Source of the DNA: a virus
UHGV virus genome: UHGV-0387525
DNA: 41,290 nt
Direction: 5' to 3' (one strand)
Shown here: positions 1-23,498 of the stretch, piece by piece
Layout: each line of letters begins with the position of its first letter
Position numbering within the stretch: the first letter of the stretch is position 1
Position numbers and translations under genes: made by a program
The notes under the pieces: model-generated
The model's database searches: none
The model's input: only the letters and a program-made list of their open reading frames with translations
What the model was told of the DNA's origin: nothing

Positions 1-88
1 CTTCTACTCATGATATCTGGCAACAACCCTCTGTAGACCGCCATCCGGCGGTCTACAGAGGGTTGTTGCCAGATATCATGAGTAGAAG
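1..88. repeat. perfect inverted repeat, 42-bp arms (1-42 and 47-88) around centre ATCC
   Basis: 1-42 is the exact reverse complement of 47-88; 1-53 is also the exact reverse complement of 41225-41277, so the left arm may be an assembly foldback. Confidence 0.6.
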
Positions 89-306
89 AAGTATGCCAGT
101 TCCGCTTTTGAGCGCAGCCATTGTCTTGTTTTACAGGCTTTAAAAAGCCCATTCATCAATACCTTACCTGGCATTTTGCGCTTACCTGTTAAGTGAGTCT
201 GGATATAGTGACTCGTCGTTCCGGCTTCCTGTGCGAAGGCTTCACGCTCATCCGGAGTAAGTGCAAGCCAGTGCTTTTTGAAATCGAAATGTCCGTTATC
301 GCTCAT
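76..306 (-). CDS. small HTH DNA-binding protein, Cro/CII-like by position (first gene of minus-strand early arm)
   Basis: 76 aa; helix-turn-helix-like segment AQEAGTTSHYIQTHLTGKR; divergent from repressor candidate across an operator-bearing intergenic region. Confidence 0.5.
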   Translation of the reverse strand: MSDNGHFDFKKHWLALTPDEREAFAQEAGTTSHYIQTHLTGKRKMPGKVLMNGLFKACKTRQWLRSKAELAYFFYS

Positions 307-4288: not shown

Positions 4289-4931
4289 TAAATACACACT
4301 AATCTATGCAGATCCACCCTGGGTATACCGGGACAAAGCCGCAGATGGTAATCGCGGTGCCGGTTTTAAATATCCGGTTATGAGTGTGCTGGATATCTGC
4401 CGCCTTCCTGTGTGGGATTTGGCCGATGAAAACTGTCTGTTGGCCATGTGGTGGGTGCCAACACAACCACTCGAAGCACTAAAAGTTGTTGAAGCCTGGG
4501 GATTCCGTCTGATGACGATGAAGGGCTTCACGTGGATAAAATGTGGTAGTCGACAACCAGATAAACTGGTTATGGGTATGGGACACATGACTCGCGCCAA
4601 TAGTGAAGATTGCCTGTTTGCGGTAAAGGGAAAACTACCTACGCGCATTAATGCAGGGATCGTTCAGTCATTTACCGCACCGCGGCTTGAGCATTCAAGA
4701 AAGCCAGATATCGTTCGTGAAAAACTTGTGCAATTATTAGGCGATGTTTCTCGCATTGAACTGTTCGCCAGCCAGACGTCTCATGGTTTCGATGTTTGGG
4801 GTAATCAGTGCGAAGACCCGGCAGTGCAACTACATCCTGGATACGCGTTGGATATTGGCGGATTAACAAATGCATTCAGCAATGCTCCGCTGTCACCAAC
4901 AGACAACCAGGGGCGGGAGCGTGCAGCATGA
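4281..4931 (+). CDS. MT-A70-family N6-adenine DNA methyltransferase
   Basis: DPPW motif ([10 protein letters not shown]); GGGGTGG RBS before ATG 4281; stop overlaps next start (ATGA). Confidence 0.8.
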
Positions 4932-5587
4932 ACCTATATCAACGCATCAATGGCGCTGACTGGTGCAATATCTTCGTCGTCGGCGATCTGCATGGGTGCT
5001 ACACACTGCTGATGAACGAACTCGACAAAGTTTCATTCGACCCGGCGCGCGATTTGCTTATTTCCGTTGGTGACCTTGTTGACCGCGGCGCTGAAAACGT
5101 CGAATGCCTGGATTTGATTACTATGCCGTGGTTCCGAGCTGTTCGTGGCAACCATGAGCACATGATGATTGATGGCTTATCAGAGCGTGGAAACGTCAAT
5201 CACTGGCTGCTTAATGGCGGTGGCTGGTTCTTTAATCTCGATTACGACAAAGAAATTCTGGCTAAAGCTCTTGCCCATAAAGCAGATGAACTTCCGTTAA
5301 TCATCGAACTGGTGAGCAAAGATAAAAAATATGTCATCTGCCACGCCGATTATCCTTGTGACGAATACGAGTTTGGAAAGCCAGTTGATCATCAGCAGGT
5401 AATCTGGAACCGCGAACGAATCAGCAACTCACAAGACGGGATCGTGAAAGAAATCAAAGGCGCGGACATGTTCATCTTTGGTCATACGCCAGCAGTGAAA
5501 CCACTCAAGTTTGCCAACCAGATGTATATCGATACCGGCGCAGTGTTCTGCGGAAATCTGACGCTTACCAAAGTCCAGGAAGGATAG
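4928..5587 (+). CDS. Ser/Thr protein phosphatase, lambda-phosphatase/PrpA-like
   Basis: metallophosphatase motifs GDLHG, GDLVDRG, GNHE; in-frame start at ATG 4928. Confidence 0.85.
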
Positions 5588-9242: not shown

Positions 9243-9270
9243 GCCCGCAATATTTTGCGGGCTTTTTTTT
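9243..9270 (+). terminator. plus-strand intrinsic terminator abutting the tailspike stop
   Basis: stem gcccgcaa/ttgcgggc, loop tatt, then eight T on plus strand. Confidence 0.55.
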
Positions 9271-12200
9271 AACGTTCTTCCAGAGACTGAACCCGCTCTT
9301 TTATCTTATCCATTTCTCTGCGCTGCCATGCTGCCTCGATATAGAATAAGAGATCAGGTCTGACCCCCCATCTAGATCCTGCTGGCGTTATTTCAACGCG
9401 CTCAATGATGTCTTCTATTACCATCACTGGATTATCATCCTCATCAACAATGATGCTCCCGTCATTATCAGTCAGCGGCATTTCCCTTTGGCCAGTAATG
9501 ACGTCATCATATACTGCGGGATAATCGTCATAGCAAAGAAAGGCATAGCGGCATGTTGTGCTTTCTTCTTCCATGAGTCCGTGAGAAATAAGAACATCAC
9601 GAAGTTGCTGCGCGATTACACCATGATGTATCCTCGCCCCTTCTTCCCCCTTTATAGCGACAGCGTTCAGCCATTTATAAGCGATATACCTGACGTCACC
9701 CCAGGCATCCAGCAATGCTTCGTCAGGAGAGACCGGCTCTGTCTTTAATGTTCCGTCACTGGTAACCACAGGATTGGAGCCAAGATAAACTGTCGAGAAC
9801 CTGTTTCCCGGACCACCAAGAGCATTTACATTATCAAGATAAGGTTTAACATCTCCGTTCTCAAAAAGATGTTCGAGTGCGTTATATACCGCGCGACGTG
9901 GAGTACTGCTTCCGGAACCATGCAACGTTATCATTGCACCATCTGCTGAAGACGTTGTTTCACCGCCGCTAACGATTAATCTCTGAGCGGTAACATCATC
10001 AGACGGTACTTTCTTCGCAATAATGGCGTAATTACCCTCAAGTTTGACTTCCGCGCGAACTTGTCCTGATGTACCTGCATGGACAGTCAGTGACTGGACG
10101 GCAACATCATCTGTGAAATCAACGGGTACAGGAACCGTCCTCACGCCTGACGTCGACATAAAAGTAGGAAGCGTTCTGTTAGGAGTGGCTCCGTAGACAA
10201 AATCCCTTGAAACAAATTCTTCCTGTTTAATTTTCACCCTGAAACAATACAAATCAGCCGGGTGACCATCGTGAACATAAGGATATTTTCTGTTGTTATC
10301 CCCTATGCTCCATGGGTTTAGAAAGTCTTCCCCACCGAAAATGTAGTACAGCCAGTTGTCTTTGATACAAACTGAACCAACACCAACCGCAGAGTTAACT
10401 ATTCCGCCCTGATAAATCTGATCAGTAACATTAACCCACTCTACATTATCCAGACTCCACTCATTGACGTTAACTCTGGTCATAAATGTTCTTGGATAAT
10501 TTCCTGCATAACGGTTATCAGGTTCTCCTCCTTCCCACTCACCAAATGCGCGCTCACTGCCAAAAATAATCAGCTCATCGCCAACTTTGGCAAAAGGAAG
10601 GTTTGAGTGATGAACATTATTTGGGAAGCGAAGAGAATTCCATGATGTACCTAAATCAGAGCTTCTGTGCAATGAACTACCGGGTTGAGTACTTAATGTC
10701 CCCCTGGTCGTCAGATACAGAATGCCATCATAATATTTTACACATGGCTCAGATGCATTCGCCTCATATTCTACAGGTATGCGTCTGCGAACAAAGCTAC
10801 CAGGAGAACCGAAAGCATCAGAGAAATAGAGTATCCCAAGCTCGCGTGGACCAATATCACCATTATGGTAGCCAACAGCAAAACTGTTATCGCTAATCGT
10901 CGCAAAACTGTGAATCTCAGTAACAGGAGTGCTTCCGTCAACAAAAGAAGGAATAGTTCCAAGACTGGTTTTTCTCCATGGTGACGAGTGAAATGATGTG
11001 CCAAAACTCCAGTATCTACCCTCGTTATTCTGATCCACATCCTGGGTATTTTGCGTCGTAACTGTAAAGGTATTTTTATCAATAACAGTAGTCACCGTCA
11101 TATTCCCGGTAACACCTGTAACACCAGAGTTTGAGAAGTTGACAAAATCACCAGCAAATAATCCGTGATCAGTAATGCGAATATAAGCGACTTGCTGATT
11201 TGCTGCTTTCGTTATACCACCATAAACGCGAAGGCTGCGACTCATTGGGCGATCCCACAACTCTGCAACCTGCAGTTTATTTCCTCTCACGGTCCGCGTC
11301 TCAATTACAGCAAAAAGGCGATTTCTGACAACCCCCATACTCATGCAGTGATAGTTAACTGTGGGATAGTTTTCATGTAAATCTGTAAGCCATTCCGGCG
11401 TTGTCCAGGTCTTCCCGTCATCTCCTGAGCGAACCCATGCAACATGGAGGTTATTCACACCATGGCGGTCTCCAGCCATAAAAGGCGCATAGATGACATT
11501 GTCATATACAAACGTTTTATCCTGCGTCCAGGCGTTGTACCACGGTGTATCTGTAATTTTAAATAACTCTCCCTGGATAAAATCTTCAGAAGCATAAAAA
11601 AGAGGCTGGCCCGGTATTCTCTCAAATAAAAAACGAGCATTTTTAAATCGACTGACATCCGGAAGAGTTGATACTTTAAAAGTAAGCCCTAATCCGTCAA
11701 TTTTATAACCTGGAGATGAGGCTTCAAGGCACGCGCTTATTGCAGTGGAATCGTCATTTATACCATCACCAACAGCTCCAAAATCTTTGGGGCTAATAGC
11801 ATCACGCATTTTATCCTGGAACGTTCGGTACACAGCCCCAGAACCATACTGAATAAACCAACCAAAACCACCAACAACTCCGGCGATTGCAGCATCGACA
11901 TAATTACGCATTGAGCGATTATTTACAGCGTCCTGCTCAAATGATGGATCTGCAAGGTTAGAAATTTTGTTTTGCTTTGCATCGTAATATTTTGCAAGCA
12001 AAGATGGTTTCATCAATGCACGTCTGAACCACCCAAAACATTGCTGGATCAGCATCGTCAGGTAGTCAAAGGCATCTTCATGCACTTCGGGGAAAAATTT
12101 TCCCTGATTGCGAAGGTCTGTGTCCTGCACTACATCAAGCACACGATCTATCGTAATTCGCCATCCAGTAGCAAGCGGAGACGGAAGAACCACAGAACCG

Positions 12201-12388
12201 CCACTATAAGTGCCCGCCCCAGTTACCGTATAACCGGTATCCAGGACCAATTCTGTTACGTTCCCGTTCAGGTCAGACACCTGAACAACCAGGTCTGATT
12301 TTCTGAAAATTCGAAAAGTATACGGAAACGATGTCGTAACGCCGTTACCGGTGTATTCGTTGTGGTCAACTTCGGTTGAGACCGTCAT
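9269..12388 (-). CDS. tail fibre/tailspike with predicted glycan depolymerase body and C-terminal S74-type intramolecular chaperone
   Basis: 1039 aa; N-terminus shows T7 gp17-like adaptor pattern (YTGNGVTTSFPYTF...VVQV); DFGAVGDGINDDSTAI pectate-lyase-like motif; Asp-box-like SGDDGKTW and SSDLGTSW; C-terminal ...ARIHHGVIAQQL chaperone-like segment. Confidence 0.75.
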   Translation of the reverse strand: MTVSTEVDHNEYTGNGVTTSFPYTFRIFRKSDLVVQVSDLNGNVTELVLDTGYTVTGAGTYSGGSVVLPSPLATGWRITIDRVLDVVQDTDLRNQGKFFPEVHEDAFDYLTMLIQQCFGWFRRALMKPSLLAKYYDAKQNKISNLADPSFEQDAVNNRSMRNYVDAAIAGVVGGFGWFIQYGSGAVYRTFQDKMRDAISPKDFGAVGDGINDDSTAISACLEASSPGYKIDGLGLTFKVSTLPDVSRFKNARFLFERIPGQPLFYASEDFIQGELFKITDTPWYNAWTQDKTFVYDNVIYAPFMAGDRHGVNNLHVAWVRSGDDGKTWTTPEWLTDLHENYPTVNYHCMSMGVVRNRLFAVIETRTVRGNKLQVAELWDRPMSRSLRVYGGITKAANQQVAYIRITDHGLFAGDFVNFSNSGVTGVTGNMTVTTVIDKNTFTVTTQNTQDVDQNNEGRYWSFGTSFHSSPWRKTSLGTIPSFVDGSTPVTEIHSFATISDNSFAVGYHNGDIGPRELGILYFSDAFGSPGSFVRRRIPVEYEANASEPCVKYYDGILYLTTRGTLSTQPGSSLHRSSDLGTSWNSLRFPNNVHHSNLPFAKVGDELIIFGSERAFGEWEGGEPDNRYAGNYPRTFMTRVNVNEWSLDNVEWVNVTDQIYQGGIVNSAVGVGSVCIKDNWLYYIFGGEDFLNPWSIGDNNRKYPYVHDGHPADLYCFRVKIKQEEFVSRDFVYGATPNRTLPTFMSTSGVRTVPVPVDFTDDVAVQSLTVHAGTSGQVRAEVKLEGNYAIIAKKVPSDDVTAQRLIVSGGETTSSADGAMITLHGSGSSTPRRAVYNALEHLFENGDVKPYLDNVNALGGPGNRFSTVYLGSNPVVTSDGTLKTEPVSPDEALLDAWGDVRYIAYKWLNAVAIKGEEGARIHHGVIAQQLRDVLISHGLMEEESTTCRYAFLCYDDYPAVYDDVITGQREMPLTDNDGSIIVDEDDNPVMVIEDIIERVEITPAGSRWGVRPDLLFYIEAAWQRREMDKIKERVQSLEER

Positions 12389-12492
12389 GTTAAATCTCCA
12401 GATAGTCGCAGCACCCGTTGCGCCGCATATCTGGTTATTCTATTACCTAAAAAACCATATATGGATAAAAAGACTATAAATACCAATAGATA

Positions 12493-12507
12493 TTACCTTT
12501 CGGGTAA
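12493..12507. promoter_or_regulatory. operator-like palindrome TTACC-N5-GGTAA
   Basis: ttacctttcgggtaa upstream of gene 12584..12841. Confidence 0.6.
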
Positions 12508-12544
12508 TTTGCAAAACGTGCTGGATAGCAAACAAATTATTTGT

Positions 12545-12564
12545 TACTGTATAAACATACAGTT
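12545..12564. promoter_or_regulatory. LexA (SOS) box
   Basis: TACTGTATAAACATACAGTT: CTGT-N8-ACAG, 17/20 match to TACTGTATATATATACAGTA. Confidence 0.7.
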
Positions 12565-12583: not shown

Positions 12584-12841
12584 ATGCAGCAGTATCACTA
12601 TCCACTGGAAGACGGATTTACCGAAAGGATTCACACGCCGGGAGGCGTCAGGTCACTGGTGGAGGGATCGCACTTGATGAAATTACTCCGGGATCTCGAT
12701 AAGGATGGATTTAATGTCGATGGCCCACTTGCCGAACTGACTGCACTGATTAACTACGTCACCAGCTCACAGATGTCTATGCAGGATCTGCAAACACATC
12801 TCGACTATTGTGCCGAACAATTACGAAAACAAACCCGGTAA
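12584..12841 (+). CDS. small antirepressor-like protein (Tum-like), paralogous to C-terminus of Ant
   Basis: 85 aa; GGAGAAG RBS before ATG 12584; LMKLLRDLDKDGFNVDGPLAELTAL...MQDLQTHLDY aligns by eye with LMNLLNQLQEDGHDVSGAAAELTTM...LRDIQTHAEY at the end of 13990..14685. Confidence 0.55.
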   Translation: MQQYHYPLEDGFTERIHTPGGVRSLVEGSHLMKLLRDLDKDGFNVDGPLAELTALINYVTSSQMSMQDLQTHLDYCAEQLRKQTR

Positions 12842-12847
12842 ATTTAA

Positions 12848-12865
12848 AGGCCGCAAGAGCGGCCT
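12848..12865. terminator. bidirectional hairpin between convergent genes
   Basis: stem aggccgc/gcggcct, loop aaga; T-rich on both sides. Confidence 0.45.
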
Positions 12866-13592
12866 ATCGTTTCGCTTTGTGCTCGTCCCAGCACGTTTTG
12901 CACCATGCCATTAAGCCGTCCGCATTTTGATTATTAGGGTAAAAGCTGGTCCGTTTTCTGCGGACATTACAAATTGGGCACCACTTCATATGGCGTGTAT
13001 TCTTTGGGCCATCGAGACACCTTGCACACCACTTAGTCAATCCATCTGGATTTTTTGACGATTTCCGGAATTTGTCATATGGAAGGTTTATTCTGCATCG
13101 CAAACACTGCTTGCGGCCACTTGAAACTCTGTTAGCTGATTCTTCTTTTGGCGGCGATACAGAAGGTATTCTTGCTGGCTCTGATACTGCCTGAGGTGCT
13201 TTATTAGATGACTGAGACGATATGTCATCACCAGGGAATCTTCCATGATATGCCGGACGCGTTGACACTCCAGGTGGAAGCTCAGCTGTAAACGGCTTTG
13301 GCTGAATCAGTTGCCTCTCTTTTGCTAACTCCTGCTGTTTATAATATGTCTGGATTACCGCACTATCATAAGCAGGAGGTGCGGAAATATTAGGCGCATT
13401 ACCTCCAGTTTTTTGAAACTGAGTAGAGGTGTGTTCTATCACCTGTGTACGATTAATCGTTATCTCCCCATCTTCGGTCTTTATCGTTTTGTTATGATTA
13501 ACGACCGTACGATCAGAGATCTTAGTCTTGTTCTGGTTGATAACGTAAATAATCACCGCAACCACACCAACAACTATCCAGAAAACTTCCAT
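12864..13592 (-). CDS. membrane-anchored protein with tandem Cys-rich (zinc-ribbon-like) repeats
   Basis: 242 aa; N-terminal TM helix; two copies of C..C..N.DGL..WC..C pattern near C-terminus. Confidence 0.45.
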   Translation of the reverse strand: MEVFWIVVGVVAVIIYVINQNKTKISDRTVVNHNKTIKTEDGEITINRTQVIEHTSTQFQKTGGNAPNISAPPAYDSAVIQTYYKQQELAKERQLIQPKPFTAELPPGVSTRPAYHGRFPGDDISSQSSNKAPQAVSEPARIPSVSPPKEESANRVSSGRKQCLRCRINLPYDKFRKSSKNPDGLTKWCARCLDGPKNTRHMKWCPICNVRRKRTSFYPNNQNADGLMAWCKTCWDEHKAKR

Positions 13593-13612
13593 TGCTTTTC
13601 CTCACAATAACA

Positions 13613-13627
13613 TTACCTTAAAGGTAA
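13613..13627. promoter_or_regulatory. operator-like palindrome TTACC-N5-GGTAA
   Basis: ttaccttaaaggtaa, 21 bp upstream of the minus-strand start at 13592. Confidence 0.6.
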
Positions 13628-13705
13628 TATCTTGCTTTCAGGTGATCAAGCGTTAAACGCAATCAACCAAATACGGTTGATTTTAATATTTCTTCGCGTT
13701 TATCA

Positions 13706-13720
13706 TTACCTTTGCGGTAA
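13706..13720. promoter_or_regulatory. operator-like palindrome overlapping promoter -10
   Basis: ttacctttgcggtaa; TTGATT (13677-13682), 18-nt spacer, TATCAT (13701-13706). Confidence 0.6.
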
Positions 13721-13989
13721 ATTTACATCGCACTCCTCTTGTGCCATAGTAATCGGGCACTGGCAAAATCCAGTGCCGGGATTGGCGTCCCGGATTACTA
13801 AAAGGCGCATTCACCGCGCAAGCGGTTTTTTTATGCGTATAGCACGGCCACATTCGTATTATGGTGGGCTGTGTGGGGGCACCGAAAGGTGCGCCGGGTC
13901 CTTTTAGCCGGTTACGCCAACCCTGCACAGTTCACCACCAACCGATTGGCGTCGGTAGTGGTGATTAACCAGACTAAAAGGTAACCACT
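13721..13989 (+). ncRNA. candidate structured leader / small RNA upstream of ant
   Basis: no credible ORF; hairpins at 13757-13778 and 13776-13793; terminator-like hairpin accgc-gcaa-gcggt + T7 at 13813-13832; decoy SD-like actaaaagg 13797-13805; anti-SD ccttttag 13900-13907. Confidence 0.35.
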
Positions 13990-14685
13990 ATGACAGCTAC
14001 AAAAAGCACGTCCATTTTTTCTTTCGAATCCCAAGCCGATATACGGGTAATCGTCATTAATGGTGAGCCATGGTTTATCGCTTCAGATGTTTGTCGGGCT
14101 ATAGGCATAGCAAACCATCGAGATGCTGTTCGAAAACTTGATGATGATGAGAAGGGCGTCGCTTCAACCGACACCCCTGGCGGTGAGCAAGAATCGATCA
14201 TCATCTCCGAGTCAGGCCTCTACACACTGATCCTCCGCTGCCGCGACGCAGTGACACCAGGCACTATCCCCTACCGCTTTCGCAAATGGGTTACAGGTGA
14301 GGTTCTTCCTCAGATCCGCCGCACCGGAAGTTACATTAAAAACTCGCTCCCGCAGGAAGAACGCATAAAGATGGTTGCCGACCAGGTAGCCAACGCCACA
14401 GCATCAGCAGTAATGCAGGCGATGAAGATAGAGAACAAAACCTACAGCGCCCCACTGAAGCCCGGCTACCGCAGCCTGATTCATTCTCCGTCTGGTGTTC
14501 TCGGCCTGACGGAGAACTCACTGCTGATGAATTTGCTGAACCAGTTGCAGGAAGACGGGCACGATGTATCGGGCGCGGCGGCGGAGCTGACAACCATGTT
14601 TTGCTACATCGTTGGTGTGAGTAAATGCCTGCGTGATATCCAGACTCACGCGGAGTACATCAACGACAAAGCAGGATTCTTCTGA
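13990..14685 (+). CDS. ant: antirepressor with N-terminal Bro-N domain
   Basis: 231 aa; Bro-N-like N-terminus (IRVIVINGEPWFIASDVCRAIGI...ESGLYTLILRCR); C-terminal segment paralogous to 12584..12841. Confidence 0.75.
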   Translation: MTATKSTSIFSFESQADIRVIVINGEPWFIASDVCRAIGIANHRDAVRKLDDDEKGVASTDTPGGEQESIIISESGLYTLILRCRDAVTPGTIPYRFRKWVTGEVLPQIRRTGSYIKNSLPQEERIKMVADQVANATASAVMQAMKIENKTYSAPLKPGYRSLIHSPSGVLGLTENSLLMNLLNQLQEDGHDVSGAAAELTTMFCYIVGVSKCLRDIQTHAEYINDKAGFF

Positions 14686-14757
14686 CGGGCGGCGGCACAG
14701 GGATGTGCCTTTAAATAATTCTGTACAGATTGCAGACCGGGGGTGAATAGCGTACTA

Positions 14758-14772
14758 TTACCTTAAAGGTAA
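14758..14772. promoter_or_regulatory. operator-like palindrome overlapping promoter
   Basis: ttaccttaaaggtaa; TTGCAG 14730-14735, 17-nt spacer, TACTAT 14753-14758. Confidence 0.6.
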
Positions 14773-14798
14773 ACCATGTGTTTACATGAGGAGGAGAT

Positions 14799-15008
14799 AT
14801 GGGATTTTGGTTCGCTCGTACAAAAACGAGGGATAATGCACCCAGCCCTCAGGCAAAAAATACAGAAGTTCCGGCGTCAGCGCAGGTTAACAAGCGTGGT
14901 GGTGTGTATATCTCATCACAGCAAATTTCTGAGCTTCCTGAGGTTAAGGAGATGCGTCGTCTCGCTGCTGCAATCGTTAAACAGGATCTTGCCACTGTAA
15001 GGAAATAG
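14799..15008 (+). CDS. small hypothetical protein
   Basis: 69 aa; GAGGAGG RBS before ATG 14799. Confidence 0.5.
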   Translation: MGFWFARTKTRDNAPSPQAKNTEVPASAQVNKRGGVYISSQQISELPEVKEMRRLAAAIVKQDLATVRK

Positions 15009-15871
15009 TGTTGTTAGCTCTTCTAATTATCCCCATTCTGGTTAGTGGTTATATTATGATAACCGCTAACCAGTATCATTATTTCCGTTTATACCGACAT
15101 GAAGGCCAGCTTCTTTATATGAAAGTAGCTGCATTAGGTACATATTGCCTTGTTGCTTCTGTAATAATTGCCACATTTATAAAATATAAATATCCTGATT
15201 TTCACCTAGTTCACGATATGGTGGAAACTTTTAATGTAACGTCAAAACCAGAAACAGATAGAATTTACATGTGGCTACTTCTTCTGTCAGTCACATCAAT
15301 TTGCTTCTCTTTGTGTTATGTATCTTTTGTTTGGCTAAAAGATCTTCTTTTAGGTTGTTTTTATAAACGTGATATTTATGACAAAATATCAGAGGCAATG
15401 AAAGCTAGGGTATTGCGAAAAACGTACTCCCAGGGTTCTTTAGATTTGCTATTGCTTGATGCAATCGAATCAGATCCTAAGAAACCAATGTTAATTACTT
15501 TATCATCAAATAAAGTATACGTTGGAATAATAAATGGTTCTGGTGAGCCAACGGAAAATCAAGGGCCACACCAACACATATCTTTTGTTCCTTTAATGTC
15601 AGGGTACAGAAACAAAGAAAATTTATCTGTTACATTTACAAACGCTTACCCAGGTGAAATCCAAATTAAGCGCAGTGCTGCGATAAAAGGGATAAGCAAA
15701 AAGAAAGTTCAAGGTCTAGAAATTATGGTATCTATAGACGAAATAAGTCATATATCATGGTTTGACTTTGAAGTATATAAGGCAACAAATAACAAAGTAG
15801 AAACAAAGGGTCATGTTGTTAATGTGACCAAAAATGGTCGCAACATATACTACAGAAGTGGCAGGAAATAA
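15008..15871 (+). CDS. polytopic membrane protein of unknown function (accessory gene)
   Basis: 287 aa; about three N-terminal TM helices then soluble domain; AT-rich; GTG start overlapping upstream stop, alternative ATG 15056. Confidence 0.5.
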   Translation: MLLALLIIPILVSGYIMITANQYHYFRLYRHEGQLLYMKVAALGTYCLVASVIIATFIKYKYPDFHLVHDMVETFNVTSKPETDRIYMWLLLLSVTSICFSLCYVSFVWLKDLLLGCFYKRDIYDKISEAMKARVLRKTYSQGSLDLLLLDAIESDPKKPMLITLSSNKVYVGIINGSGEPTENQGPHQHISFVPLMSGYRNKENLSVTFTNAYPGEIQIKRSAAIKGISKKKVQGLEIMVSIDEISHISWFDFEVYKATNNKVETKGHVVNVTKNGRNIYYRSGRK

Positions 15872-15895
15872 ATTTTACGCAGTTTAGGTGGCTTA

Positions 15896-16400
15896 TATGG
15901 ATAATACTATCTTAGGCGCATTGATAGGTGCTGTTATTGCTATAGTTTCCACTTATATAAATGCAGGACAAGGATACAAAAACAGCATAAGATTAGAGCG
16001 ACAAAAAATATTAAGGGATAAACGCGAGCAATTATTTATAAATTGTATACTTACTAAAAAAGTCATAGATTCAAGCACAATTACCATTCTCAATTTCGTA
16101 AAAAATGCCAGATACCACTCTGATAGTAAATTTGACGTATCAAGAGCGAATCCGTTGCAAACGATGGAAATGCTAATAAACATATACCTTCCTGAGTATA
16201 AAAAAGACTTACAAGAACTCAATAATGCGTATCAAGAATTTCACAAATACTACTCTCAATATACATGTGCACATACCTTCAAAAATATGCCTGATAATGA
16301 GAAGTCGAGGTTTATTGAGGAGGCTGATTTTTATGCAAAAAAGATATATGGCAAACTTAATGATATTAAGGACAAGATATCATTAAACTCAATAGTATAA
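15896..16400 (+). CDS. single-pass membrane protein of unknown function (accessory gene)
   Basis: N-terminal TM helix ILGALIGAVIAIVSTYI; AGGTGG RBS 5 nt before ATG 15896; AT-rich. Confidence 0.5.
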
Positions 16401-17361: not shown

Positions 17362-20300
17362 CTATTTCATCTGCTCTTCAACTTTATTTAGTAATGGTGA
17401 TATCGCCCACAGATTCTGAAAAGGTAGCATTTTACGGACAGCGTGGGTTTGCTGGCTGTCAAATTCTCCGTTAAGTACACCATTTGCAACCGTCGCGGCA
17501 TCACCGCCAAGATCAAAGGTAGGACCAAGTAAAGCACCAATAGCATTACGACTCTGAAACCTTGATACCGGAGGCGCACCAAACATCGCGCCAAGACCAA
17601 ACCTACCGCCGCTTATGTTCTCAACGGTATTCAGCGGCTCAGAGAGCCAGCCAAGCATTCCGCCCCGGTCGATCCCCTCTTTCACAAGGTTATTCCAGCT
17701 GTAGTCGATATCGCGACCGCTTAACTTCTGTTTCATCATATAGACCATTGAGCCAAGCGCAATCGTGCCAAGCGCACCAAGATAGAATGCAGCATCGCCC
17801 TGCTGGATACCAGATACCAGCACCCTGTTATGCTGTGCGAAGATAAACGTTTTGAACTGCGTGATCATCTTCCAGCCTTCTTTACTAAAAAACAGCGGTG
17901 TATCACCTACGCCAGGCGTTACAATCACTGAGTCTACATCTTTCAGCACTGCAGACTGGAAAATCTCTCTAGCGAAACGGTCATCCCACAGATGACTATG
18001 CCCGGTTAACAGCCCGCCCATATCCTCTCCGTGCTTCCCGAATTGCTCCCCGATTCGGCGCAGAACATCTTCATTGATGCCGACCTGTGCCATCTTCCGC
18101 ATTTCACTTTTGGAGAGCGTGCCACCAGCAGAAACTTGGCGAGCCGCGTCAAGTATCCTCGACTGCACTATCATCCCAGACCATGATTTAAGTGCGCTGT
18201 TCCACTGATTCATCAGCGTCCAGTTACCGAATTTCTGCGTCATCCAGTTCAGACCTCGCTCAGCGGCGCTTCTCCGGCTATAGGGGTCAGTAAGATCCGC
18301 TATAGCCTTTGTACGCGTAGACAGGACATAATCAAGCCCAACTGCCATTTCTCGCAAATCCCTGGTTGCAATTTTCACTGAGTCCATATTTTTAAGCATG
18401 CTTACCATTGGTCCGAGAGATTTTCTCAGGCCATGCTGCATCATCGGTCGCATCAGATCAGTTGCAGCGGAGACAGTCATTCCACCAAGCAAACGGAGGA
18501 AGTTAATATTCCTAGCAACTCGCCCGGCACGAACAAAGAAACTGCGTGGATCTTGAGGTGCACCGTAAGTACCAAGCAGTCGATCACGCATAGCCGTAAT
18601 ATCCCTAATATCAGCCTCCCGTTGCTTCTCAAGAACTGCACGTCGTTTAGGTGTTTTAGCCTCTTTTATTAGCCGGGTATATTCCTCACTAACCTGACGG
18701 ATTTGCTCCCCCATATCTTTACGGCCAAACTGCGCAGTCAGCTCAATTTCTGGTGCCACCTGCCGGAGATAACTTTCCATGATGTAGTTAACATCTGATT
18801 CAAGAAAATCTTCTATACGCTCATCAGGAATAAGCAGCGTTCTGCTTTTAGTGAAACCAGCCCGACCAACGAGTCTCTCTGGGATAATATCGGCTGGTAC
18901 AAGCCCGGAAGGTGCGCCTATTATTTTATTCACGATCTCGTCAGCAGCGTCCTCTGCTTCCTCTCGGGATAGAGGCTCCATCTGCTTCAGTGCTCGCTCG
19001 CGGCTTGCATTCAGCCTTGTGGTTGAATTTGCCCGTTTTTGCAGTCGGCGAAGCTCAGAACGATATTTCCGTGGATTATCCAGCAACTCCATATGGCGCT
19101 GATAGACAGGAAGCTCACTCTTTGCCTGCGCTATATCATCAAGGCGTGTTTTAAGGTCAGAGCTTTCTTTCATCATTCTTGCCTGAAGTTTTTCTGATGA
19201 AGTCTCGGCCAACTCTTTTTCTATTCTTGTAAGACGCGCCTGTGTGTCAGTCTCCTGAGATATAAGCTTATTTCGTTTATCCAGTTCTTCCATGAGTAGA
19301 ATTTTTTTACCAGACCATTTCTCCGCTTCAGCGATTTCACTAGCGAGAGCATCAGCGCGCGGTGCTGATTCCTCTGCAGTTTTTAGCAATGAATTTATCT
19401 TTTCAATTCGCTGACCTGCTTTGTCAGCACCTTTGGCACTAATCCCTTGTATCCAGTTGGCAATTCGCCCTCTGAATTCAGTGCGGTCGGAAAGTATCTT
19501 ATCGAACTTATAAATGCGGGGAAGATAACTCTTCGCCGTCACGACATCGATATCCTCAGGAAGGATCCCCAATTCCTGCATACGGGCTTTTGTGGTCTCA
19601 AAAATGGGGCGGATTCTGGCGGCTGCTTGTGAAACCTCAGGAATATCACTCTGATCACCACGGCGCATAGCCATGCCAACAGCTTCATTGAAATCAATAA
19701 AGTTCATCCTCTTCACGCCGCGGGCGCTGACAGATTTGCTGTACTGCTGGTAAGCATCACGAGTAGCTTCCATCTGCTTATAAAGCATGGCGTCGTATTG
19801 CTTAATCTTAGTCTCGACTGCCGTAAACGTAGCCAACCCCTCATCATTTTTGGCGAAGAAATAGTTATTTTCGGCAAGCTGCTGGTTAATCTGACGGGAG
19901 ACAAGAGATGGTGATTGCGCCAAGCGGCCAGCAGGAGTGACACTCAACGTTTTGTTAGCAAGTCCAAGTCCAGCGAGCTGTTCCTGATCGAGTGTGGTAT
20001 TGAAAACCTGAGCTGCACCAATGCTTTGAGGAGAATCCATACCTCGCAAATGATTACCTACTGAGTTAACCACTGCCTCGCGCGCGCTAGGTCCAGCAAG
20101 TAGCTGTGCACCAGCACCAAGGATCCCACCAACGAGAGCATCAACAACAACGTTCGATACGCTCTCCATCGGTGAGCGAGCTTCCTGAGTGGCCTGTAAT
20201 GCGGCTTCTGATACTCCCCCACCAGCAGCATTCGCCAGGGCAAAACGCCCTGCCGTCTCAGCAATACTTCCTCCACGCGCTACCGCCCCTACAGGGATGA

Positions 20301-20751
20301 ACATTGCAGCCACATTAACCGGGTCTATCATTCCCATTGCTAAGCTTGAAATAGTACCAGCACCACCCATTTCAGATAGATATTCTCTATCTGTTCTTTG
20401 CTTATCGATTCGATGTTTAATTGCCATTGTTTCTTCATGCGAACCGGAGTTGATAAACGAATCTGCAAAATCTTCATAGCCTTTAATATCTGCTGCATCG
20501 TTATCAAATGGGTTATATCCTTCAACCCTGTCAAACTGACTGAAAGGAGCACTGGCAATAAAGCTACCCAGCGTGTTATCTATACGAAATGCTGCTTGTC
20601 TAGACCTTTGAACGCGTTGATCACTGGTAAATGGGTTCACAGCAGAAAGCAAAGAAGGTGTTTCCATATAGAAATTACTGTCATCAGGTGCTGCTATTTG
20701 CTGAATATCCTCGCCAAGCAACTCTTTAGGATCCTGTTCATATATCGGCAT
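17362..20751 (-). CDS. large internal virion/ejection protein (T7 gp16-like by size and position)
   Basis: 1129 aa; Gly/Ala-rich and coiled-coil segments; last gene of virion block. Confidence 0.45.
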   Translation of the reverse strand: MPIYEQDPKELLGEDIQQIAAPDDSNFYMETPSLLSAVNPFTSDQRVQRSRQAAFRIDNTLGSFIASAPFSQFDRVEGYNPFDNDAADIKGYEDFADSFINSGSHEETMAIKHRIDKQRTDREYLSEMGGAGTISSLAMGMIDPVNVAAMFIPVGAVARGGSIAETAGRFALANAAGGGVSEAALQATQEARSPMESVSNVVVDALVGGILGAGAQLLAGPSAREAVVNSVGNHLRGMDSPQSIGAAQVFNTTLDQEQLAGLGLANKTLSVTPAGRLAQSPSLVSRQINQQLAENNYFFAKNDEGLATFTAVETKIKQYDAMLYKQMEATRDAYQQYSKSVSARGVKRMNFIDFNEAVGMAMRRGDQSDIPEVSQAAARIRPIFETTKARMQELGILPEDIDVVTAKSYLPRIYKFDKILSDRTEFRGRIANWIQGISAKGADKAGQRIEKINSLLKTAEESAPRADALASEIAEAEKWSGKKILLMEELDKRNKLISQETDTQARLTRIEKELAETSSEKLQARMMKESSDLKTRLDDIAQAKSELPVYQRHMELLDNPRKYRSELRRLQKRANSTTRLNASRERALKQMEPLSREEAEDAADEIVNKIIGAPSGLVPADIIPERLVGRAGFTKSRTLLIPDERIEDFLESDVNYIMESYLRQVAPEIELTAQFGRKDMGEQIRQVSEEYTRLIKEAKTPKRRAVLEKQREADIRDITAMRDRLLGTYGAPQDPRSFFVRAGRVARNINFLRLLGGMTVSAATDLMRPMMQHGLRKSLGPMVSMLKNMDSVKIATRDLREMAVGLDYVLSTRTKAIADLTDPYSRRSAAERGLNWMTQKFGNWTLMNQWNSALKSWSGMIVQSRILDAARQVSAGGTLSKSEMRKMAQVGINEDVLRRIGEQFGKHGEDMGGLLTGHSHLWDDRFAREIFQSAVLKDVDSVIVTPGVGDTPLFFSKEGWKMITQFKTFIFAQHNRVLVSGIQQGDAAFYLGALGTIALGSMVYMMKQKLSGRDIDYSWNNLVKEGIDRGGMLGWLSEPLNTVENISGGRFGLGAMFGAPPVSRFQSRNAIGALLGPTFDLGGDAATVANGVLNGEFDSQQTHAVRKMLPFQNLWAISPLLNKVEEQMK

Positions 20752-23498
20752 TATTTGCCCCCTGCGTATATATTGCTCGGAAGGTAATTGGCTGAACCAT
20801 AACCGAATGGTTTGGTCAGATCTGGAGGAGTATATCCATCTTTATTGCTGAACTGCGGCAGCGGATTGCCTTCTCTCCGCACTCTAGCCTCATCAACACG
20901 CTGTTGCTGGAACTGAATGGTTTGCCTGTACATTGGAGATGTCAGCTGATCCGGCTTGAAACGAACAGGGAGACCATTTTCTCCAATATAATTTCTCGGT
21001 TCTATCGCTCCGTTTGCGTCAGGCTGTAAAACCATAACAGCATAACTCCTATCCCTTGCCGTAAGGCCATCAGAAACAAGTATTAAGTCCGTATCACTGC
21101 GAGGACCGCCAAAGGATTTTGATTTAAGCTCGCGTTTTTCCTGCTCCCACTGCCCCTGTATCCAGTTACCAGCACCATTATTTACTCCGTACAATGCCTC
21201 AGGTGCATACTTCATAACCTCTGCTTTGCCATTAACTGTAGAAACTCCCCAGGTGGTTCTGATCATGGCATTGGTCATTTTCTCAGCCTGTTCTGCATCG
21301 CCACCTGTCTGTACAAAGTTAGCATCGTAAATTGTCTGGTAATCTCGCTGATAGGCCGCATTTGATTTTCCTGGATCGGTAATATCCGGAGACCACGAAC
21401 CAAAGGAAGTCAGACTGCTGGCGTTATTTTGTGCAGCAGTTGCCCTCGCCGCGACATATTTTTTGTCTCGCATGGCAGTGGAAAGCATCTGTTTCATTCG
21501 GTCATCCTGTTGGAACACCTGGCTGTAAGCCATATCAACAGCCTTATCCTCCGGCACGCCAGCGCGGGAATAATCATAAACCTTGCCGTAAAATGCCATC
21601 GTACTTTTATCAAGTGTTGCCGCTGCCGCCGGATTATTATCGAATAACTGACCGTAGAATTTTGCCATCGGGACAACCAGCGCAGGATCTCTTGATGTTG
21701 CTCCACTGTTAAGCATTGTTTTAACCTGAGTTGGTATCATGCCGCTTTTAGTTGTGACGGTGACCAGTGTATTGATGCTCTGCGGATCAGATATGGAAAA
21801 CGAAGGCGCGATATCCTGCGCGAAATAACGGTCTACCGCTGCCTGATTGTTTTTGTCGTTAGGGTCCAGCGGGAAGTTATTTTGCATTGAAGACACGAAC
21901 CTGTTTCTTCCCTGCTGAATCTCCCACTCCCTATCCATCTCTTTAAATTTGGCCTGCATTTTCTCCCAGCGTTGCTGGTTAGCTGCAAATCCAGGAGCGT
22001 TTGGATCCTGTGGACGTAAACGTTCAAGAATGTCTTGTCGTCCTTCTGGAGTGAGGTCTTTAGCGGCACCAATGACACCTCCATATTGTATCTGCGCCTG
22101 CATATCCTTCCACTTCATAGCGCCAATGCGCGGACCATTGGCCCGGATAAAATCGTCCTCAGAAGGTAACTTCTCAGGTTTCAATCCTTCATCAAGGGCT
22201 GAATATGCATCTTTAACTACGGTGCTAAGCTGGTCCGCATACTGCTGGCGGTACTGATTTCTCAGCTCATTAGCCTGCCTCAATGCCTGTATTTGCATTT
22301 GAGGGCTCATAGCGTCAAATGCCGCATTGCCCGTATAACGCTTAGGTGAATCAAGGTTAGTTAGACCAAGGGCTGCCGAGATACCAGTTTCAAGCTGTTC
22401 GGTGCTATAAGGCATACTGCCATTTTCGTGTTTAATAATCCCAGCACATAAAGCAGCTAGTGTCTTTGGGTTAGAGATATCAAGCTGATCATTCTCCCCA
22501 ACACCAAGCTCACTACACAATGCCCTAATATAAGCATCAGTATTATTACCATCACTAGCCGGAGCATAGCGATTAACAATCTCGCTAACGGTGTCATAGC
22601 CTTGACGCTGGTAAGACAACATATTTTTACCCAACGCGCGGATTCCATGCTCAGGGGTAGCAAACGTTGCAAAACGTCCATCGCTACCGATCTGACCTTC
22701 CCACGGGTTAGATTTGCTCGCTTCAATATTGCCAGGGTTATTATTACGTAAACCACGAGCATCCAATGAATTACCATGTGATATTGCACGACTCACACCA
22801 TCAAGATCCCCTGGCTCTCCATTAACCTGAAGAAACTCGTTGTATTTTTGAGCGATATTTCCTATCCATGCTTGCTGCCCCATTTGTTCCTTGAGCTGAG
22901 TTTTCTGCTGAACACGCCACTCATCAGGAAGCCCATGCGCATCAGCGTATTGATCAATAGATTCAAATCGCTGCTTGGCTAAATCGACAAATGCTTGGTT
23001 ATCGCTATATAGCCCCGCAGACTGAGTGACAGCCAATGCATTTCCTGACAAATACGTTTGATCTTGGAATTGCTGAAACTGCCCAACTTCATATCGACGT
23101 GCCTGATTGTAATAAGACTGCATAGACTGCTGGAGTTGAAAGGATAATTTATTCCTTTCCTCACTTTCAGGAATTGAGCCTAATAATGCCTGAGCCCTTT
23201 CCTGCATATTTTTCATAACAGCGTCACTCTGACCAAGAGCGTTTTTACCCTGTTTAGAAATCAGCCCATTTTCAGGGTTGTTAATCTGGTCATCTGCAAA
23301 TTGGTTAAATTGCAGTAACGCCTCCTGGGCCATAGCAACATTCGCTTTCTGCCTAGCTTCACCATATGCCACCGCATACTGATCTGCGACATTCGCCAGC
23401 ACCTGACCTGCTTGAGGAACATCGAAGGTCTGAAAACCACCGGTTTGCACACCACGACTTTGCACCTGGCGTCCGGATGTAGTAGGAACAACAGGCAT
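20751..23498 (-). CDS. internal virion protein (T7 gp15-like by position), possible muralytic segment
   Basis: 915 aa; segment RGLRNNNPGNI...FATFATPEHGIRALG resembles virion-associated cell-wall hydrolases (unverified). Confidence 0.4.
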   Translation of the reverse strand: MPVVPTTSGRQVQSRGVQTGGFQTFDVPQAGQVLANVADQYAVAYGEARQKANVAMAQEALLQFNQFADDQINNPENGLISKQGKNALGQSDAVMKNMQERAQALLGSIPESEERNKLSFQLQQSMQSYYNQARRYEVGQFQQFQDQTYLSGNALAVTQSAGLYSDNQAFVDLAKQRFESIDQYADAHGLPDEWRVQQKTQLKEQMGQQAWIGNIAQKYNEFLQVNGEPGDLDGVSRAISHGNSLDARGLRNNNPGNIEASKSNPWEGQIGSDGRFATFATPEHGIRALGKNMLSYQRQGYDTVSEIVNRYAPASDGNNTDAYIRALCSELGVGENDQLDISNPKTLAALCAGIIKHENGSMPYSTEQLETGISAALGLTNLDSPKRYTGNAAFDAMSPQMQIQALRQANELRNQYRQQYADQLSTVVKDAYSALDEGLKPEKLPSEDDFIRANGPRIGAMKWKDMQAQIQYGGVIGAAKDLTPEGRQDILERLRPQDPNAPGFAANQQRWEKMQAKFKEMDREWEIQQGRNRFVSSMQNNFPLDPNDKNNQAAVDRYFAQDIAPSFSISDPQSINTLVTVTTKSGMIPTQVKTMLNSGATSRDPALVVPMAKFYGQLFDNNPAAAATLDKSTMAFYGKVYDYSRAGVPEDKAVDMAYSQVFQQDDRMKQMLSTAMRDKKYVAARATAAQNNASSLTSFGSWSPDITDPGKSNAAYQRDYQTIYDANFVQTGGDAEQAEKMTNAMIRTTWGVSTVNGKAEVMKYAPEALYGVNNGAGNWIQGQWEQEKRELKSKSFGGPRSDTDLILVSDGLTARDRSYAVMVLQPDANGAIEPRNYIGENGLPVRFKPDQLTSPMYRQTIQFQQQRVDEARVRREGNPLPQFSNKDGYTPPDLTKPFGYGSANYLPSNIYAGGK

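What the first reader, a model, noticed from the sequence alone, without database searches (positions are those of the whole stretch)
12864..13592. Membrane-anchored protein with duplicated Cys4-like modules between the two antirepressor genes
An N-terminal TM helix and an unstructured linker are followed by two tandem copies of a C..C...N.DGL..WC..C module (zinc-ribbon-like). It is on the opposite strand to both antirepressor genes, with an operator 21 bp upstream of its start. I cannot assign a function.
Basis: seen in the sequence. Interest (0 to 1): 0.45.

Follow-up and report, generated by a model that had tools for sequence, protein, structure and literature searches.

The report
Membrane-tethered zinc-finger protein of prophage immunity regions
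This is a real, conserved gene of an epsilon15-like E. coli prophage whose protein is anchored in the inner membrane and hangs two strongly basic zinc fingers into the cytoplasm; relatives across Gammaproteobacteria almost always lie beside phage repressor or antirepressor genes, which points to an uncharacterised phage-exclusion or immunity role.

Summary
ORF 12864-13592 (-) encodes 242 aa: a TM helix (res 3-21), a conserved juxtamembrane hairpin, a variable P/Q/S-rich linker, and two tandem CxxC-x22-CxxC modules (8 invariant Cys; domain pI 10). It is not a remnant. All 52 E. coli-type copies checked are intact, it occurs in 129 of 5426 complete E. coli genomes, and dN/dS is 0.08 in the Zn domain against about 1 in the linker.

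The family is PHROG 6762 (unknown function), with no Pfam, NCBIfam or PADLOC membership. The module is the non-catalytic Zn module found in arrays and at the N-termini of viral HNH/EndoVII nucleases and helicases (Stc1-like).

The palindrome upstream is one of 15 TTACC-N5-GGTAA operators of the phage CI/Cro switch. It overlaps a conserved promoter, TTGAnC-17-TACCTT.

In distant relatives the gene lies directly downstream of a CI-type (S24) repressor gene, or of an Arc/Mnt-type one.

Best reading (inferred, about 0.4): an N-out/C-in membrane-tethered nucleic-acid-binding protein that acts in phage exclusion or abortive infection, like AbiP and PdpSau but with a different DNA-binding fold.

Unexplained: it looks CI-repressed here, yet is co-transcribed with the repressor elsewhere.

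The parts
12864..13592 (-). CDS, 242 aa, PHROG 6762 family (function unknown)
   Evidence: ORF; full-length PHROG match E 1.4e-149; 33 homologue clusters; intact in 52/52 IMG/VR E. coli-type copies, dN/dS 0.1-0.4; 129/5426 E. coli genomes
13530..13586 (-). N-terminal transmembrane helix (res 3-21), predicted N-out/C-in
   Evidence: AF2 helix 3-21, pLDDT about 90; over 43 family members 0.00 K/R before the helix against 3.67 K/R in the 15 residues after it
13428..13523 (-). Conserved juxtamembrane segment (res 24-55), predicted beta-hairpin; N21 and G42 are conserved in at least 90% of distant members
   Evidence: Alignments; AF2 strands 27-39 and 42-54 at low confidence; dN/dS 0.28 for res 1-60
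13116..13427 (-). Variable P/Q/S-rich linker (res 56-159), mostly disordered
   Evidence: Length varies and alignment is poor among homologues; pLDDT mostly below 50; dN/dS about 1 for res 61-157
13005..13115 (-). Zn module 1 (res 160-196; C163, C166, C189, C192)
   Evidence: Cys invariant; pLDDT above 90; marginal sequence match to the PacI N-terminal Cys4 motif, E 0.067
12867..12989 (-). Zn module 2 plus basic C-terminal helix (res 202-242; C205, C208, C231, C234)
   Evidence: matches the N-terminal parts of the PHROG 'endonuclease VII', HNH and Lar-like families
13599..13603 (-). Shine-Dalgarno GAGGA, 6 nt before the ATG
   Evidence: Read from the sequence
13612..13628 (.). Perfect 17-bp palindromic operator ATTACCTTAAAGGTAAT of the phage CI/Cro switch
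   Evidence: The same motif occurs three times between the divergent cro-like and repressor genes (343, 367, 391). An operator is kept at the same spot in orthologous loci of other genera, and Providencia phages carry a different palindrome there
13621..13649 (-). Candidate sigma-70 promoter: -35 TTGATC (13649-13644), 17-nt spacer, -10 TACCTT (13626-13621) inside the operator
   Evidence: The same TTGA(C/A/T)C-17-TACCTT geometry is found in Enterobacter/Citrobacter/Salmonella-type loci, L072 and Serratia loci although the surrounding sequence differs. Only 7/12 consensus matches, so the scanner did not call it. Inferred, not shown
12848..12865 (.). GC-rich hairpin AGGCCGCTCTTGCGGCCT, a bidirectional terminator shared with the convergent small ant-like gene
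12584..12841 (+). Context: 85-aa gene homologous to the C-terminal domain of the Bro-N Ant (PHROG 450). A LexA box (12547-12562) and an operator (12492-12508) lie upstream
13744..13942 (+). Context: c4-a1b1 / isrK (13757-13832) / C4 antisense RNA (13857-13942) leader of the ant operon, with operator 13705-13721 at its promoter
   Evidence: Rfam: isrK 77.9 bits, C4 77.7 bits; promoter-like sites 13677-13706 and 13722-13750; operator
13990..14685 (+). Context: Bro-N antirepressor
   Evidence: Pfam Bro-N E 2.3e-21; PHROG anti-repressor Ant

Best explanation
The gene is an independently transcribed accessory cassette (promoter/operator, gene, terminator) of an epsilon15/phiV10-like prophage. Its product is a bitopic inner-membrane protein. 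A two-residue N-terminus faces the periplasm and a single TM helix anchors the protein. A conserved juxtamembrane hairpin and a flexible spacer of about 100 residues then hold a compact, strongly basic tandem Cys4 zinc-finger domain in the cytoplasm. That domain is built from the non-catalytic Zn module that phages and giant viruses attach to HNH/EndoVII nucleases and helicases, so it most likely binds nucleic acid. Expression is tied to the immunity repressor in every lineage examined. I infer that the protein captures DNA at the cytoplasmic face of the membrane and so interferes with an incoming or competing phage genome. This would be superinfection exclusion or abortive infection, in the manner of the membrane-anchored nucleic-acid binders AbiP and PdpSau. 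One possibility is that DNA-driven clustering of the anchors perturbs the membrane. Shown: the architecture, its conservation, the distribution of the module, the operator, and the genomic linkage. Inferred: Zn binding, topology, the DNA ligand, the promoter, and the exclusion role.
Against: No experiment exists for any member. There is no PADLOC hit for this protein or for ten distant members. In this phage and its relatives in Enterobacter, Citrobacter, Salmonella and Serratia, a strong (here perfect) CI/Cro operator overlaps the candidate -10. That predicts repression in the lysogen, which is the opposite of what a lysogen-expressed exclusion gene needs and the opposite of the cI-operon arrangement in distant relatives. 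The Zn domain is under strong purifying selection (dN/dS 0.08), whereas many defence sensors diversify. DNA binding rests on association and charge only. The eukaryotic Stc1 tandem finger is a protein-binding module (own knowledge). A polybasic domain could also bind anionic lipid. Matches to solved structures are weak.
Confidence: 0.4

Rival explanations
1. An early or induction-phase phage function rather than lysogen defence. The gene is silent under CI and switched on with the antirepressors. The protein then tethers phage (or host) DNA to the membrane to organise replication or packaging or to disturb the host nucleoid, as the phi29 membrane protein p16.7 does.
For: A perfect operator overlaps the conserved candidate -10/+1. 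The same operator type guards the PL/PR-like promoters and both ant genes. The operator type co-varies with the resident phage. p16.7 is a membrane protein that recruits phi29 DNA to the membrane (PMC4974454).
Against: It is dispensable: phiV10, ZX5, the O157 typing phages and others lack it, and only 6 of 50,697 phage records carry the family. In nine or more other loci it is co-directional with, and immediately downstream of, cI or mnt, i.e. in a lysogenic transcript.
Confidence: 0.2
2. A modulator of the immunity circuit. The zinc fingers bind a protein (an antirepressor, the repressor or a host factor) and sequester it at the membrane. Alternatively the protein is a membrane-tethered regulator that is released by proteolysis in the disordered linker.
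For: It is nearly always next to repressor or antirepressor genes (Bro-N, KilA-N, ANT, Rha, CI, Arc/Mnt) in unrelated phage backbones. It gives a sub-threshold Pfam Stc1 match, and Stc1/LIM-type tandem fingers mediate protein contacts (own knowledge). It has a long disordered linker and a conserved juxtamembrane element.
Against: A net charge of +10 to +19 is conserved in all members. The module's partners elsewhere are nucleases and helicases. No partner gene co-occurs consistently.
Confidence: 0.2
3. The opposite topology (N-in/C-out). A periplasmic, disulfide-bonded Cys-rich domain on a TonB-like proline-rich stalk blocks DNA injection at envelope level.
For: It has a P-rich spacer and eight Cys. 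It lies in the slot between the tailspike and ejection-protein genes, where P22 keeps sieA (own knowledge).
Against: The positive-inside rule argues strongly the other way in 43/43 members, and there is no basic n-region. The same module occurs in cytoplasmic nucleases and helicases. The CxxC-x22-CxxC spacing with the second pair at a helix N-terminus is a metal-site geometry.
Confidence: 0.05
4. A non-expressed remnant or chance ORF.
For: TL-2011b annotates the region only as a 1089-bp misc_feature 'similar to hypothetical protein'.
Against: The ORF is intact in 52/52 copies, with purifying selection in the TM and Zn parts. It is full length in 129 E. coli genomes. It has orthologues at 38-64% identity with conserved ends, an SD, a promoter/operator and a terminator. 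The sequence upstream of the ATG holds isrK/C4 RNA genes, not coding sequence.
Confidence: 0.01

Closest known systems
AbiP (Lactococcus) and PdpSau (S. aureus prophage): membrane-anchored abortive-infection proteins
   Same: A single gene. An N-terminal membrane helix with a positively charged cytoplasmic C-terminal nucleic-acid-binding part. PdpSau is carried as a prophage accessory gene (PMC10127798).
   Different: No detectable sequence similarity. Their binding domain is OB-fold-like, whereas this one is a tandem Cys4 finger on a long disordered leash. PdpSau is predicted N-in, and pdpSau is linked to lysis genes rather than to the immunity region. No phenotype is known here.
Accessory Zn modules of viral HNH / endonuclease VII homing-type nucleases; Cys4 sites of PacI and Hpy99I
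   Same: The same CxxC...F...DG..(W)CxxC module by sequence and fold.
   Different: There is no catalytic domain: no Pfam HNH or Endonuclease_7 hit, and no conserved His/Asn inside the modules. Here the module is membrane-tethered.
Pfam Stc1 domain (PF12898; tandem zinc finger of fission-yeast Stc1)
   Same: The only Pfam family matched. Arrays of the module pass its threshold (31-39 bits).
   Different: This protein scores 21.7, below the 24.8 cut-off, and only the last third of the profile matches. Stc1 is a eukaryotic protein-protein adaptor (own knowledge).
lambda RexAB and P22 SieA (lysogen-expressed exclusion genes of immunity regions)
   Same: Genomic position: downstream of cI or mnt in distant members. 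In epsilon15-like phages it lies in the slot between the tailspike and ejection genes that corresponds to P22 immI/sieA (gene positions in lambda and P22 from own knowledge).
   Different: No homology, a different architecture, and here an apparently CI-repressed promoter.
phi29 p16.7
   Same: A phage membrane protein that recruits DNA to the membrane (PMC4974454).
   Different: An unrelated DNA-binding domain, a lytic Gram-positive phage, and a replication function; p16.7 is not an accessory gene.
ZipA (E. coli)
   Same: The N-out/C-in bitopic layout: TM helix, charged segment, P/Q-rich flexible linker and a globular cytoplasmic domain (own knowledge).
   Different: Unrelated sequence; the ZipA domain binds FtsZ.

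Membership tests
PHROG 6762 (unknown function) | Full-length profile match | tested here: met
   E 1.4e-149, residues 1-242 on profile 1-242
Pfam Stc1 (PF12898) | Score at or above the gathering threshold of 24.8 bits | tested here: not met
   21.7 bits, profile positions 52-83 only. Multi-module relatives do pass, so the relation holds at module level only
HNH / endonuclease VII (beta-beta-alpha-Me) nucleases | Catalytic HNH or EndoVII domain with a conserved His/Asn metal site | tested here: not met
   No PF01844 or PF02945 hit. PHROG hits cover only the N-terminal accessory parts of those profiles. In P0120 the modules (res 4-120) are separate from the HNH domain (178-223). No invariant His or Asn inside either module
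Cys4 zinc finger (treble-clef or zinc-ribbon type) | Four conserved Cys as two CxxC pairs on a knuckle/helix scaffold | tested here: met
   8/8 Cys invariant in 29 and in 43 sequences; confident AF2 fold, pLDDT 90
Cys4 zinc finger (treble-clef or zinc-ribbon type) | Actual Zn(II) binding | not testable with these tools
   Needs ICP-MS or PAR assay on purified protein
AbiP/PdpSau-like membrane-anchored Abi proteins | N-terminal membrane anchor with a basic cytoplasmic C-terminal part | tested here: met
   (prediction only)
AbiP/PdpSau-like membrane-anchored Abi proteins | OB-fold-like nucleic-acid-binding domain or sequence relatedness | tested here: not met
   The domain is a tandem Cys4 finger. 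No PADLOC match for this protein or 10 relatives
AbiP/PdpSau-like membrane-anchored Abi proteins | Abortive-infection or exclusion phenotype | not testable with these tools
   Needs phage challenge assays
Moron / independent accessory cassette | Own promoter and terminator, and presence/absence polymorphism among close relatives | tested here: met
   Absent from phiV10 and present in TL-2011b with clean boundaries; terminator; conserved promoter/operator. Promoter activity itself is not shown
CI/Cro regulon of this phage | Operator of the immunity switch at the promoter | tested here: met
   A perfect TTACC-N5-GGTAA site. The same motif occurs three times between the divergent cro-like gene (76-306) and the repressor gene (461-1045), and 15 times in the genome against 1.2 expected. 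Binding by the repressor is not shown
Zinc-binding anti-sigma factors (ZAS) | HxxxCxxC motif in an N-terminal cytoplasmic domain followed by a TM segment | tested here: not met
   The domain order is reversed and the motif is absent

The most novel reading that the evidence does not exclude
The family is a new kind of single-protein phage-immunity device, carried in the repressor operons of temperate phages across Gammaproteobacteria. It would be a membrane-tethered DNA sensor whose polybasic zinc fingers bind invading DNA as it enters. That binding would either cluster the TM/juxtamembrane parts into a membrane lesion (abortive infection) or release the finger domain to act on the lysis-lysogeny switch. 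The differing wiring, co-transcribed with cI in some phages and CI-repressed in epsilon15-like phages, would then reflect two deployment modes of one device.
Probability: 0.12. Interest if true: 0.75.

Novelty: new variant of a known kind. Interest (0 to 1): 0.5.

Why it matters
Genes placed next to prophage repressors have repeatedly proved to be exclusion or defence systems. This family is widespread. About 45 of the best 150 cluster representatives share the architecture. It occurs in Enterobacterales, Aeromonas, Acinetobacter, Pasteurellaceae and marine Gammaproteobacteria, and in 2.4% of complete E. coli genomes. It is absent from the libraries checked here: PADLOC 2023 and NCBIfam give no hit, Pfam gives only a sub-threshold Stc1 match, and PHROGs lists the family as function unknown. 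It is a single small gene and is easy to test. It would also give a first functional context to a Zn module found in thousands of viral nucleases and helicases. The dispersed operator set offers a defined regulon for the poorly studied epsilon15/phiV10 immunity system.

Tried and rejected
1. Foldseek of the full-length model against the PDB found nothing at E<=0.001.
3. The afdb50 library was unavailable.
4. A profile search of PDB sequences gave only a marginal PacI N-terminus match, E 0.067.
5. PADLOC and NCBIfam gave no hits.
6. I asked whether the ORF is the 3' part of a longer, broken gene, as the 1089-bp misc_feature in TL-2011b suggests. I rejected this: the N-terminus is conserved family-wide, the ORF starts at the first start codon after an in-frame stop, and the upstream DNA encodes isrK/C4 RNAs.
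7. I rejected a catalytically active HNH-type nuclease, because there is no catalytic domain or motif.
8. I rejected a periplasmic orientation on charge distribution.
9. I looked for a conserved partner gene and found none.
10. The promoter scanner found no - strand promoter upstream of the ORF. The candidate promoter rests on cross-genus conservation.
11. Literature searches for a characterised homologue found none. tblastn with three family members finds the family in only 6 of 50,697 phage records, none of them a studied gene.

Full report
**1. What the window is.** The window is an epsilon15/phiV10-like (Uetakevirus-type) temperate podophage genome. Its closest phage record is Escherichia phage TL-2011b, at 97% identity over the 2.4 kb around the finding. 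The finding lies in the accessory region between the tailspike gene (9269-12388, -) and the large ejection/virion protein genes (17362-23498, -).

**2. The observation.** ORF 12864-13592 (-) encodes 242 aa and has a GAGGA ribosome-binding site 6 nt upstream.
- Residues 3-21 form a hydrophobic helix, predicted with pLDDT about 90.
- Residues 24-55 are conserved and modelled as a beta-hairpin at low confidence.
- Most of residues 56-159 have low pLDDT and are P/S/Q-rich. This stretch varies in length and sequence between homologues.
- Residues 160-242 form two modules, CxxC-x22-CxxC each. They align in register with 12/36 identities.
- A separate model of the C-terminal domain has mean pLDDT 90 and pTM 0.71. 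In it the second CxxC of each module starts a helix, which is a treble-clef-like geometry.
- All eight Cys are invariant in 29 homologues and in 43 more distant members.

**3. The gene is real.**
- A word-indexed protein search found 33 clusters at 38-97% identity. The hits named by a source are Escherichia, Superficieibacter, Enterobacter, Citrobacter, Salmonella, Serratia, Providencia, Pectobacterium and Buttiauxella.
- The E. coli cluster alone has 424 member sequences.
- 129 of 5426 complete E. coli genomes carry a full-length copy at 90% identity or more, always chromosomal and annotated 'hypothetical protein'.
- Of 54 E. coli-type IMG/VR loci scanned, 52 had a recognisable start, and all 52 have an intact 242-codon frame.
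- Nei-Gojobori dN/dS is 0.08 for the Zn domain, 0.28 for the TM plus juxtamembrane part, and about 1 for the linker.

The two ends are therefore functional and the middle is a spacer.

**4. Database status.**
- The protein matches PHROG 6762 (unknown function) over its full length.
- Pfam gives only a sub-threshold Stc1 hit, 21.7 against a cut-off of 24.8 bits.
- NCBIfam and PADLOC give nothing, and ten distant members also give nothing in PADLOC.
- The family is in only 6 of 50,697 phage records: TL-2011b (two records), Yersinia phages YeP4/5/6 and Aeromonas phiARM81mr.

**5. What the Zn module is.** An exhaustive HMMER search with a profile of residues 158-242 found 3029 cluster representatives at E<=1e-3. 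They fall into two populations.
- About 45 of the top 150 share the present architecture: 'M-E/D' then a TM helix, the juxtamembrane motif, a linker and two modules.
- The rest are soluble proteins with 3-12 modules in arrays of roughly 55-residue period. Those scanned include fusions to an HNH nuclease (P0120), a ResIII/DEAD helicase with wHTH domains (P0038), an SF1 helicase (P0105) and HEAT repeats.

Other evidence agrees.
- PHROG matches fall on the N-terminal parts of the 'endonuclease VII', HNH, 'Lar-like' and primase families.
- Foldseek against BFVD gives 35 hits at E<=1e-3, many of them HNH/EndoVII endonucleases of phages and giant viruses, 'Zn-finger' proteins and 'Stc1 domain' proteins. 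Single-module superpositions reach 0.7-2.6 A.
- The protein has no catalytic HNH or EndoVII domain and no conserved His/Asn in the modules.

So the module is the non-catalytic accessory finger of these enzymes. Because of its partners, I infer that it binds nucleic acid. The net charge of the domain is +10 to +19 in all 43 members examined, and its pI here is 10.0.

**6. Topology.** Across 43 members there is no K or R before the TM helix, and 3.7 on average in the 15 residues after it. The positive-inside rule (established knowledge) therefore puts the two-residue N-terminus outside and everything else in the cytoplasm. This agrees with a metal-binding Cys4 domain that also occurs in cytoplasmic enzymes. 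The layout (TM, charged segment, P/Q-rich leash, globular domain) resembles that of ZipA (own knowledge).

**7. Local anatomy and regulation.**
- Compared with phiV10, the window and TL-2011b carry an insertion that starts just after the stop codon of the 85-aa gene (12584-12841). It ends near 13690 and contains the terminator hairpin, the ORF, its SD and the palindrome.
- The palindrome ATTACCTTAAAGGTAAT (13612-13628) is the best copy of a motif that occurs 9 times with up to 3 mismatches (0.21 expected).
- Its core TTACC-N5-GGTAA occurs 15 times (1.2 expected; the maximum in 200 shuffles was 5).
- Three copies (343, 367, 391) lie between a divergent 76-aa cro-like ORF (76-306, -; no Pfam hit) and the HTH_3 repressor gene (461-1045, +).
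- Two more copies flank a TTGACA-17-CATAAT promoter downstream of the repressor gene.
- Others precede the small ant-like gene, the isrK/C4-ant operon, the 14799-16400 genes and the replication operon.

These are therefore the operators of the immunity switch, dispersed over the genome. Repressor and Bro-N antirepressor functions in this phage genus have experimental support from overexpression (PMC9782041), but that paper defines no operator.

The best candidate promoter for the ORF is TTGATC (13649-13644), 17 nt, TACCTT (13626-13621), with the -10 inside the operator. It matches only 7/12 consensus positions and the scanner did not call it. However, the same TTGA(C/A/T)C-17-TACCTT geometry with an overlapping operator recurs upstream of the orthologues in other lineages. 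These are Enterobacter/Citrobacter/Salmonella-type loci (L065-L070), L072 and Serratia loci (L003, L081), whose flanks are otherwise different.

In Providencia-type prophages the TTACC-type motif is absent. A different palindrome, TTAACC-N5-GGTTAA, occupies the same spot and recurs elsewhere in the accessory region. So the gene always carries the resident phage's operator. Taken at face value, this predicts repression by CI in the lysogen and expression on infection or induction.

**8. Wider genomic context.**
- In epsilon15-like prophages of other genera the usual order is tailspike(-), small Ant(+), Bro-N/KilA-N Ant(+), this gene(+), ejection proteins(-). In E. coli the cassette is inverted and sits between the two Ant-type genes.
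- In more distant members with the same architecture, the gene starts 11-54 nt downstream of an S24 CI-type repressor gene on the same strand. These loci are Aeromonas phage phiARM81mr (L010), L093, L097/98, L099, Acinetobacter (L105), Marinobacterium (L107) and Neptunomonas (L112).
- One gene intervenes in L100 (an SNase nuclease) and in L106.
- The gene is tail-to-tail with cI in L108 and L111.
- It follows an Arc/Mnt-type repressor gene that is divergent from an arc-KilA-N unit (a P22 immI-like layout) in L095/96 and L104.
- L107 also has an SNase/Excalibur gene just downstream.

The family is thus tied to immunity regulators in unrelated phage backbones. In most lineages outside the epsilon15 group it sits in the transcript that maintains lysogeny. 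That is the position of lambda rexAB and comparable exclusion genes (own knowledge).

**9. Interpretation.**
- The best-supported model is a membrane-tethered, cytoplasm-facing, nucleic-acid-binding protein that acts on phage DNA at the membrane, either in exclusion or in abortive infection.
- It has experimentally studied analogues in architecture. [quoted passage not shown] PdpSau is a prophage protein with an N-terminal membrane helix and a basic cytoplasmic C-terminus; it halts phage DNA replication and depolarises the membrane (PMC10127798).
- The protein is not a member of those families. Its domain is different and there is no sequence relation.
- The main difficulty is the sign of regulation: CI-repressed here, co-transcribed with cI or mnt elsewhere. 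No explanation I tested accounts for this.
- Possible reconciliations are a function needed early after infection in both regimes, incomplete repression, or different deployment of the same device.

Rivals are (a) an early lytic DNA-tethering role like phi29 p16.7 (PMC4974454), (b) a protein-sequestering or proteolytically released regulator of the Ant/CI circuit, and (c) a periplasmic orientation, which is unlikely. A remnant or chance ORF is excluded.

**10. Verdict.**
- It is an uncharacterised but widespread family with a clear architecture and a strong, newly documented link to phage immunity regions.
- Its function remains inferred.
- I rate it a new variant of a known kind (membrane-anchored nucleic-acid-binding prophage accessory proteins), of moderate interest, and readily testable.

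Noticed in passing
window 343, 367, 391, 1103, 1165, 6889, 12493, 13613, 13706, 14758, 32488, 35677, 35695, 39194, 39256, 41195: The operator TTACC-N5-GGTAA is dispersed over the whole genome (15 sites at up to 1 mismatch against 1.2 expected, plus a weaker copy at 367). Three copies lie in the cro-like/repressor intergenic region and others at PL-like, ant, int-proximal and replication-operon positions. This many-operator layout recalls P1 C1 rather than lambda and is not described in the one paper read on this phage genus (PMC9782041).
   Followed up: partly
window 13744-13942 (+): Rfam finds c4-a1b1 (45.1 bits, just below its gathering score), isrK (13757-13832, 77.9 bits) and C4 antisense RNA (13857-13942, 77.7 bits) in the leader of the Bro-N ant gene. 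This is a P1 immI-like / Gifsy-1 IsrK-like antisense control of the antirepressor. The ORFs 13632-13907 (+) and 13683-13928 (-) listed there are probably spurious.
   Followed up: partly
window 12547-12562, upstream of 12584-12841 (+): A consensus LexA box, TACTGTATAAACATACAGT, lies between an operator (12492-12508) and the 85-aa gene homologous to the Ant C-terminal domain. The repressor (461-1045) has an HTH_3 domain but no S24 peptidase domain. This suggests induction through a LexA-controlled small antirepressor, as in Gifsy phages and coliphage 186 (own knowledge).
   Followed up: partly
window 1-100 and 41225-41290: The first ~45 bases are the reverse complement of the next ~45. Bases ~36-100 repeat the last ~66 bases of the window (seen). 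This is probably an assembly or circularisation artefact at the contig ends, within the cro/early-operon region.
   Followed up: no
window 14757-16400 (+): An operator (14757-14773, 1 mismatch) precedes three further accessory ORFs: 14799-15008, 15008-15871 (287 aa, PHROG 3630, hydrophobic N-terminus) and 15888-16400 (170 aa, PHROG 36918). All are of unknown function with no PADLOC or NCBIfam hit. Parts of this set travel with the target gene in Providencia-type loci (L074, L077).
   Followed up: partly
L100 2706-3143; L107 4654-5307: SNase-family nuclease genes share the cI operon with the homologue in two unrelated lineages. The one in L107 has a hydrophobic, signal-peptide-like N-terminus (read by eye) and an Excalibur domain. 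This could be a nuclease-plus-tether exclusion pair.
   Followed up: no
L065-L070, about 55-70 nt upstream of the homologue's ATG: A perfect palindrome, TGTGACATGTCACA, sits just upstream of the -35 of the homologue's promoter in Enterobacter/Citrobacter/Salmonella-type prophages. It is absent from the window. Which factor binds it is unknown.
   Followed up: no
L001 (TL-2011b, NC_019445) 4464-5552: The reference record annotates the intact 242-codon gene only as a 1089-bp misc_feature 'similar to hypothetical protein'. That feature also covers the isrK/C4 RNA region, so the gene is missing from the record's protein set.
   Followed up: yes
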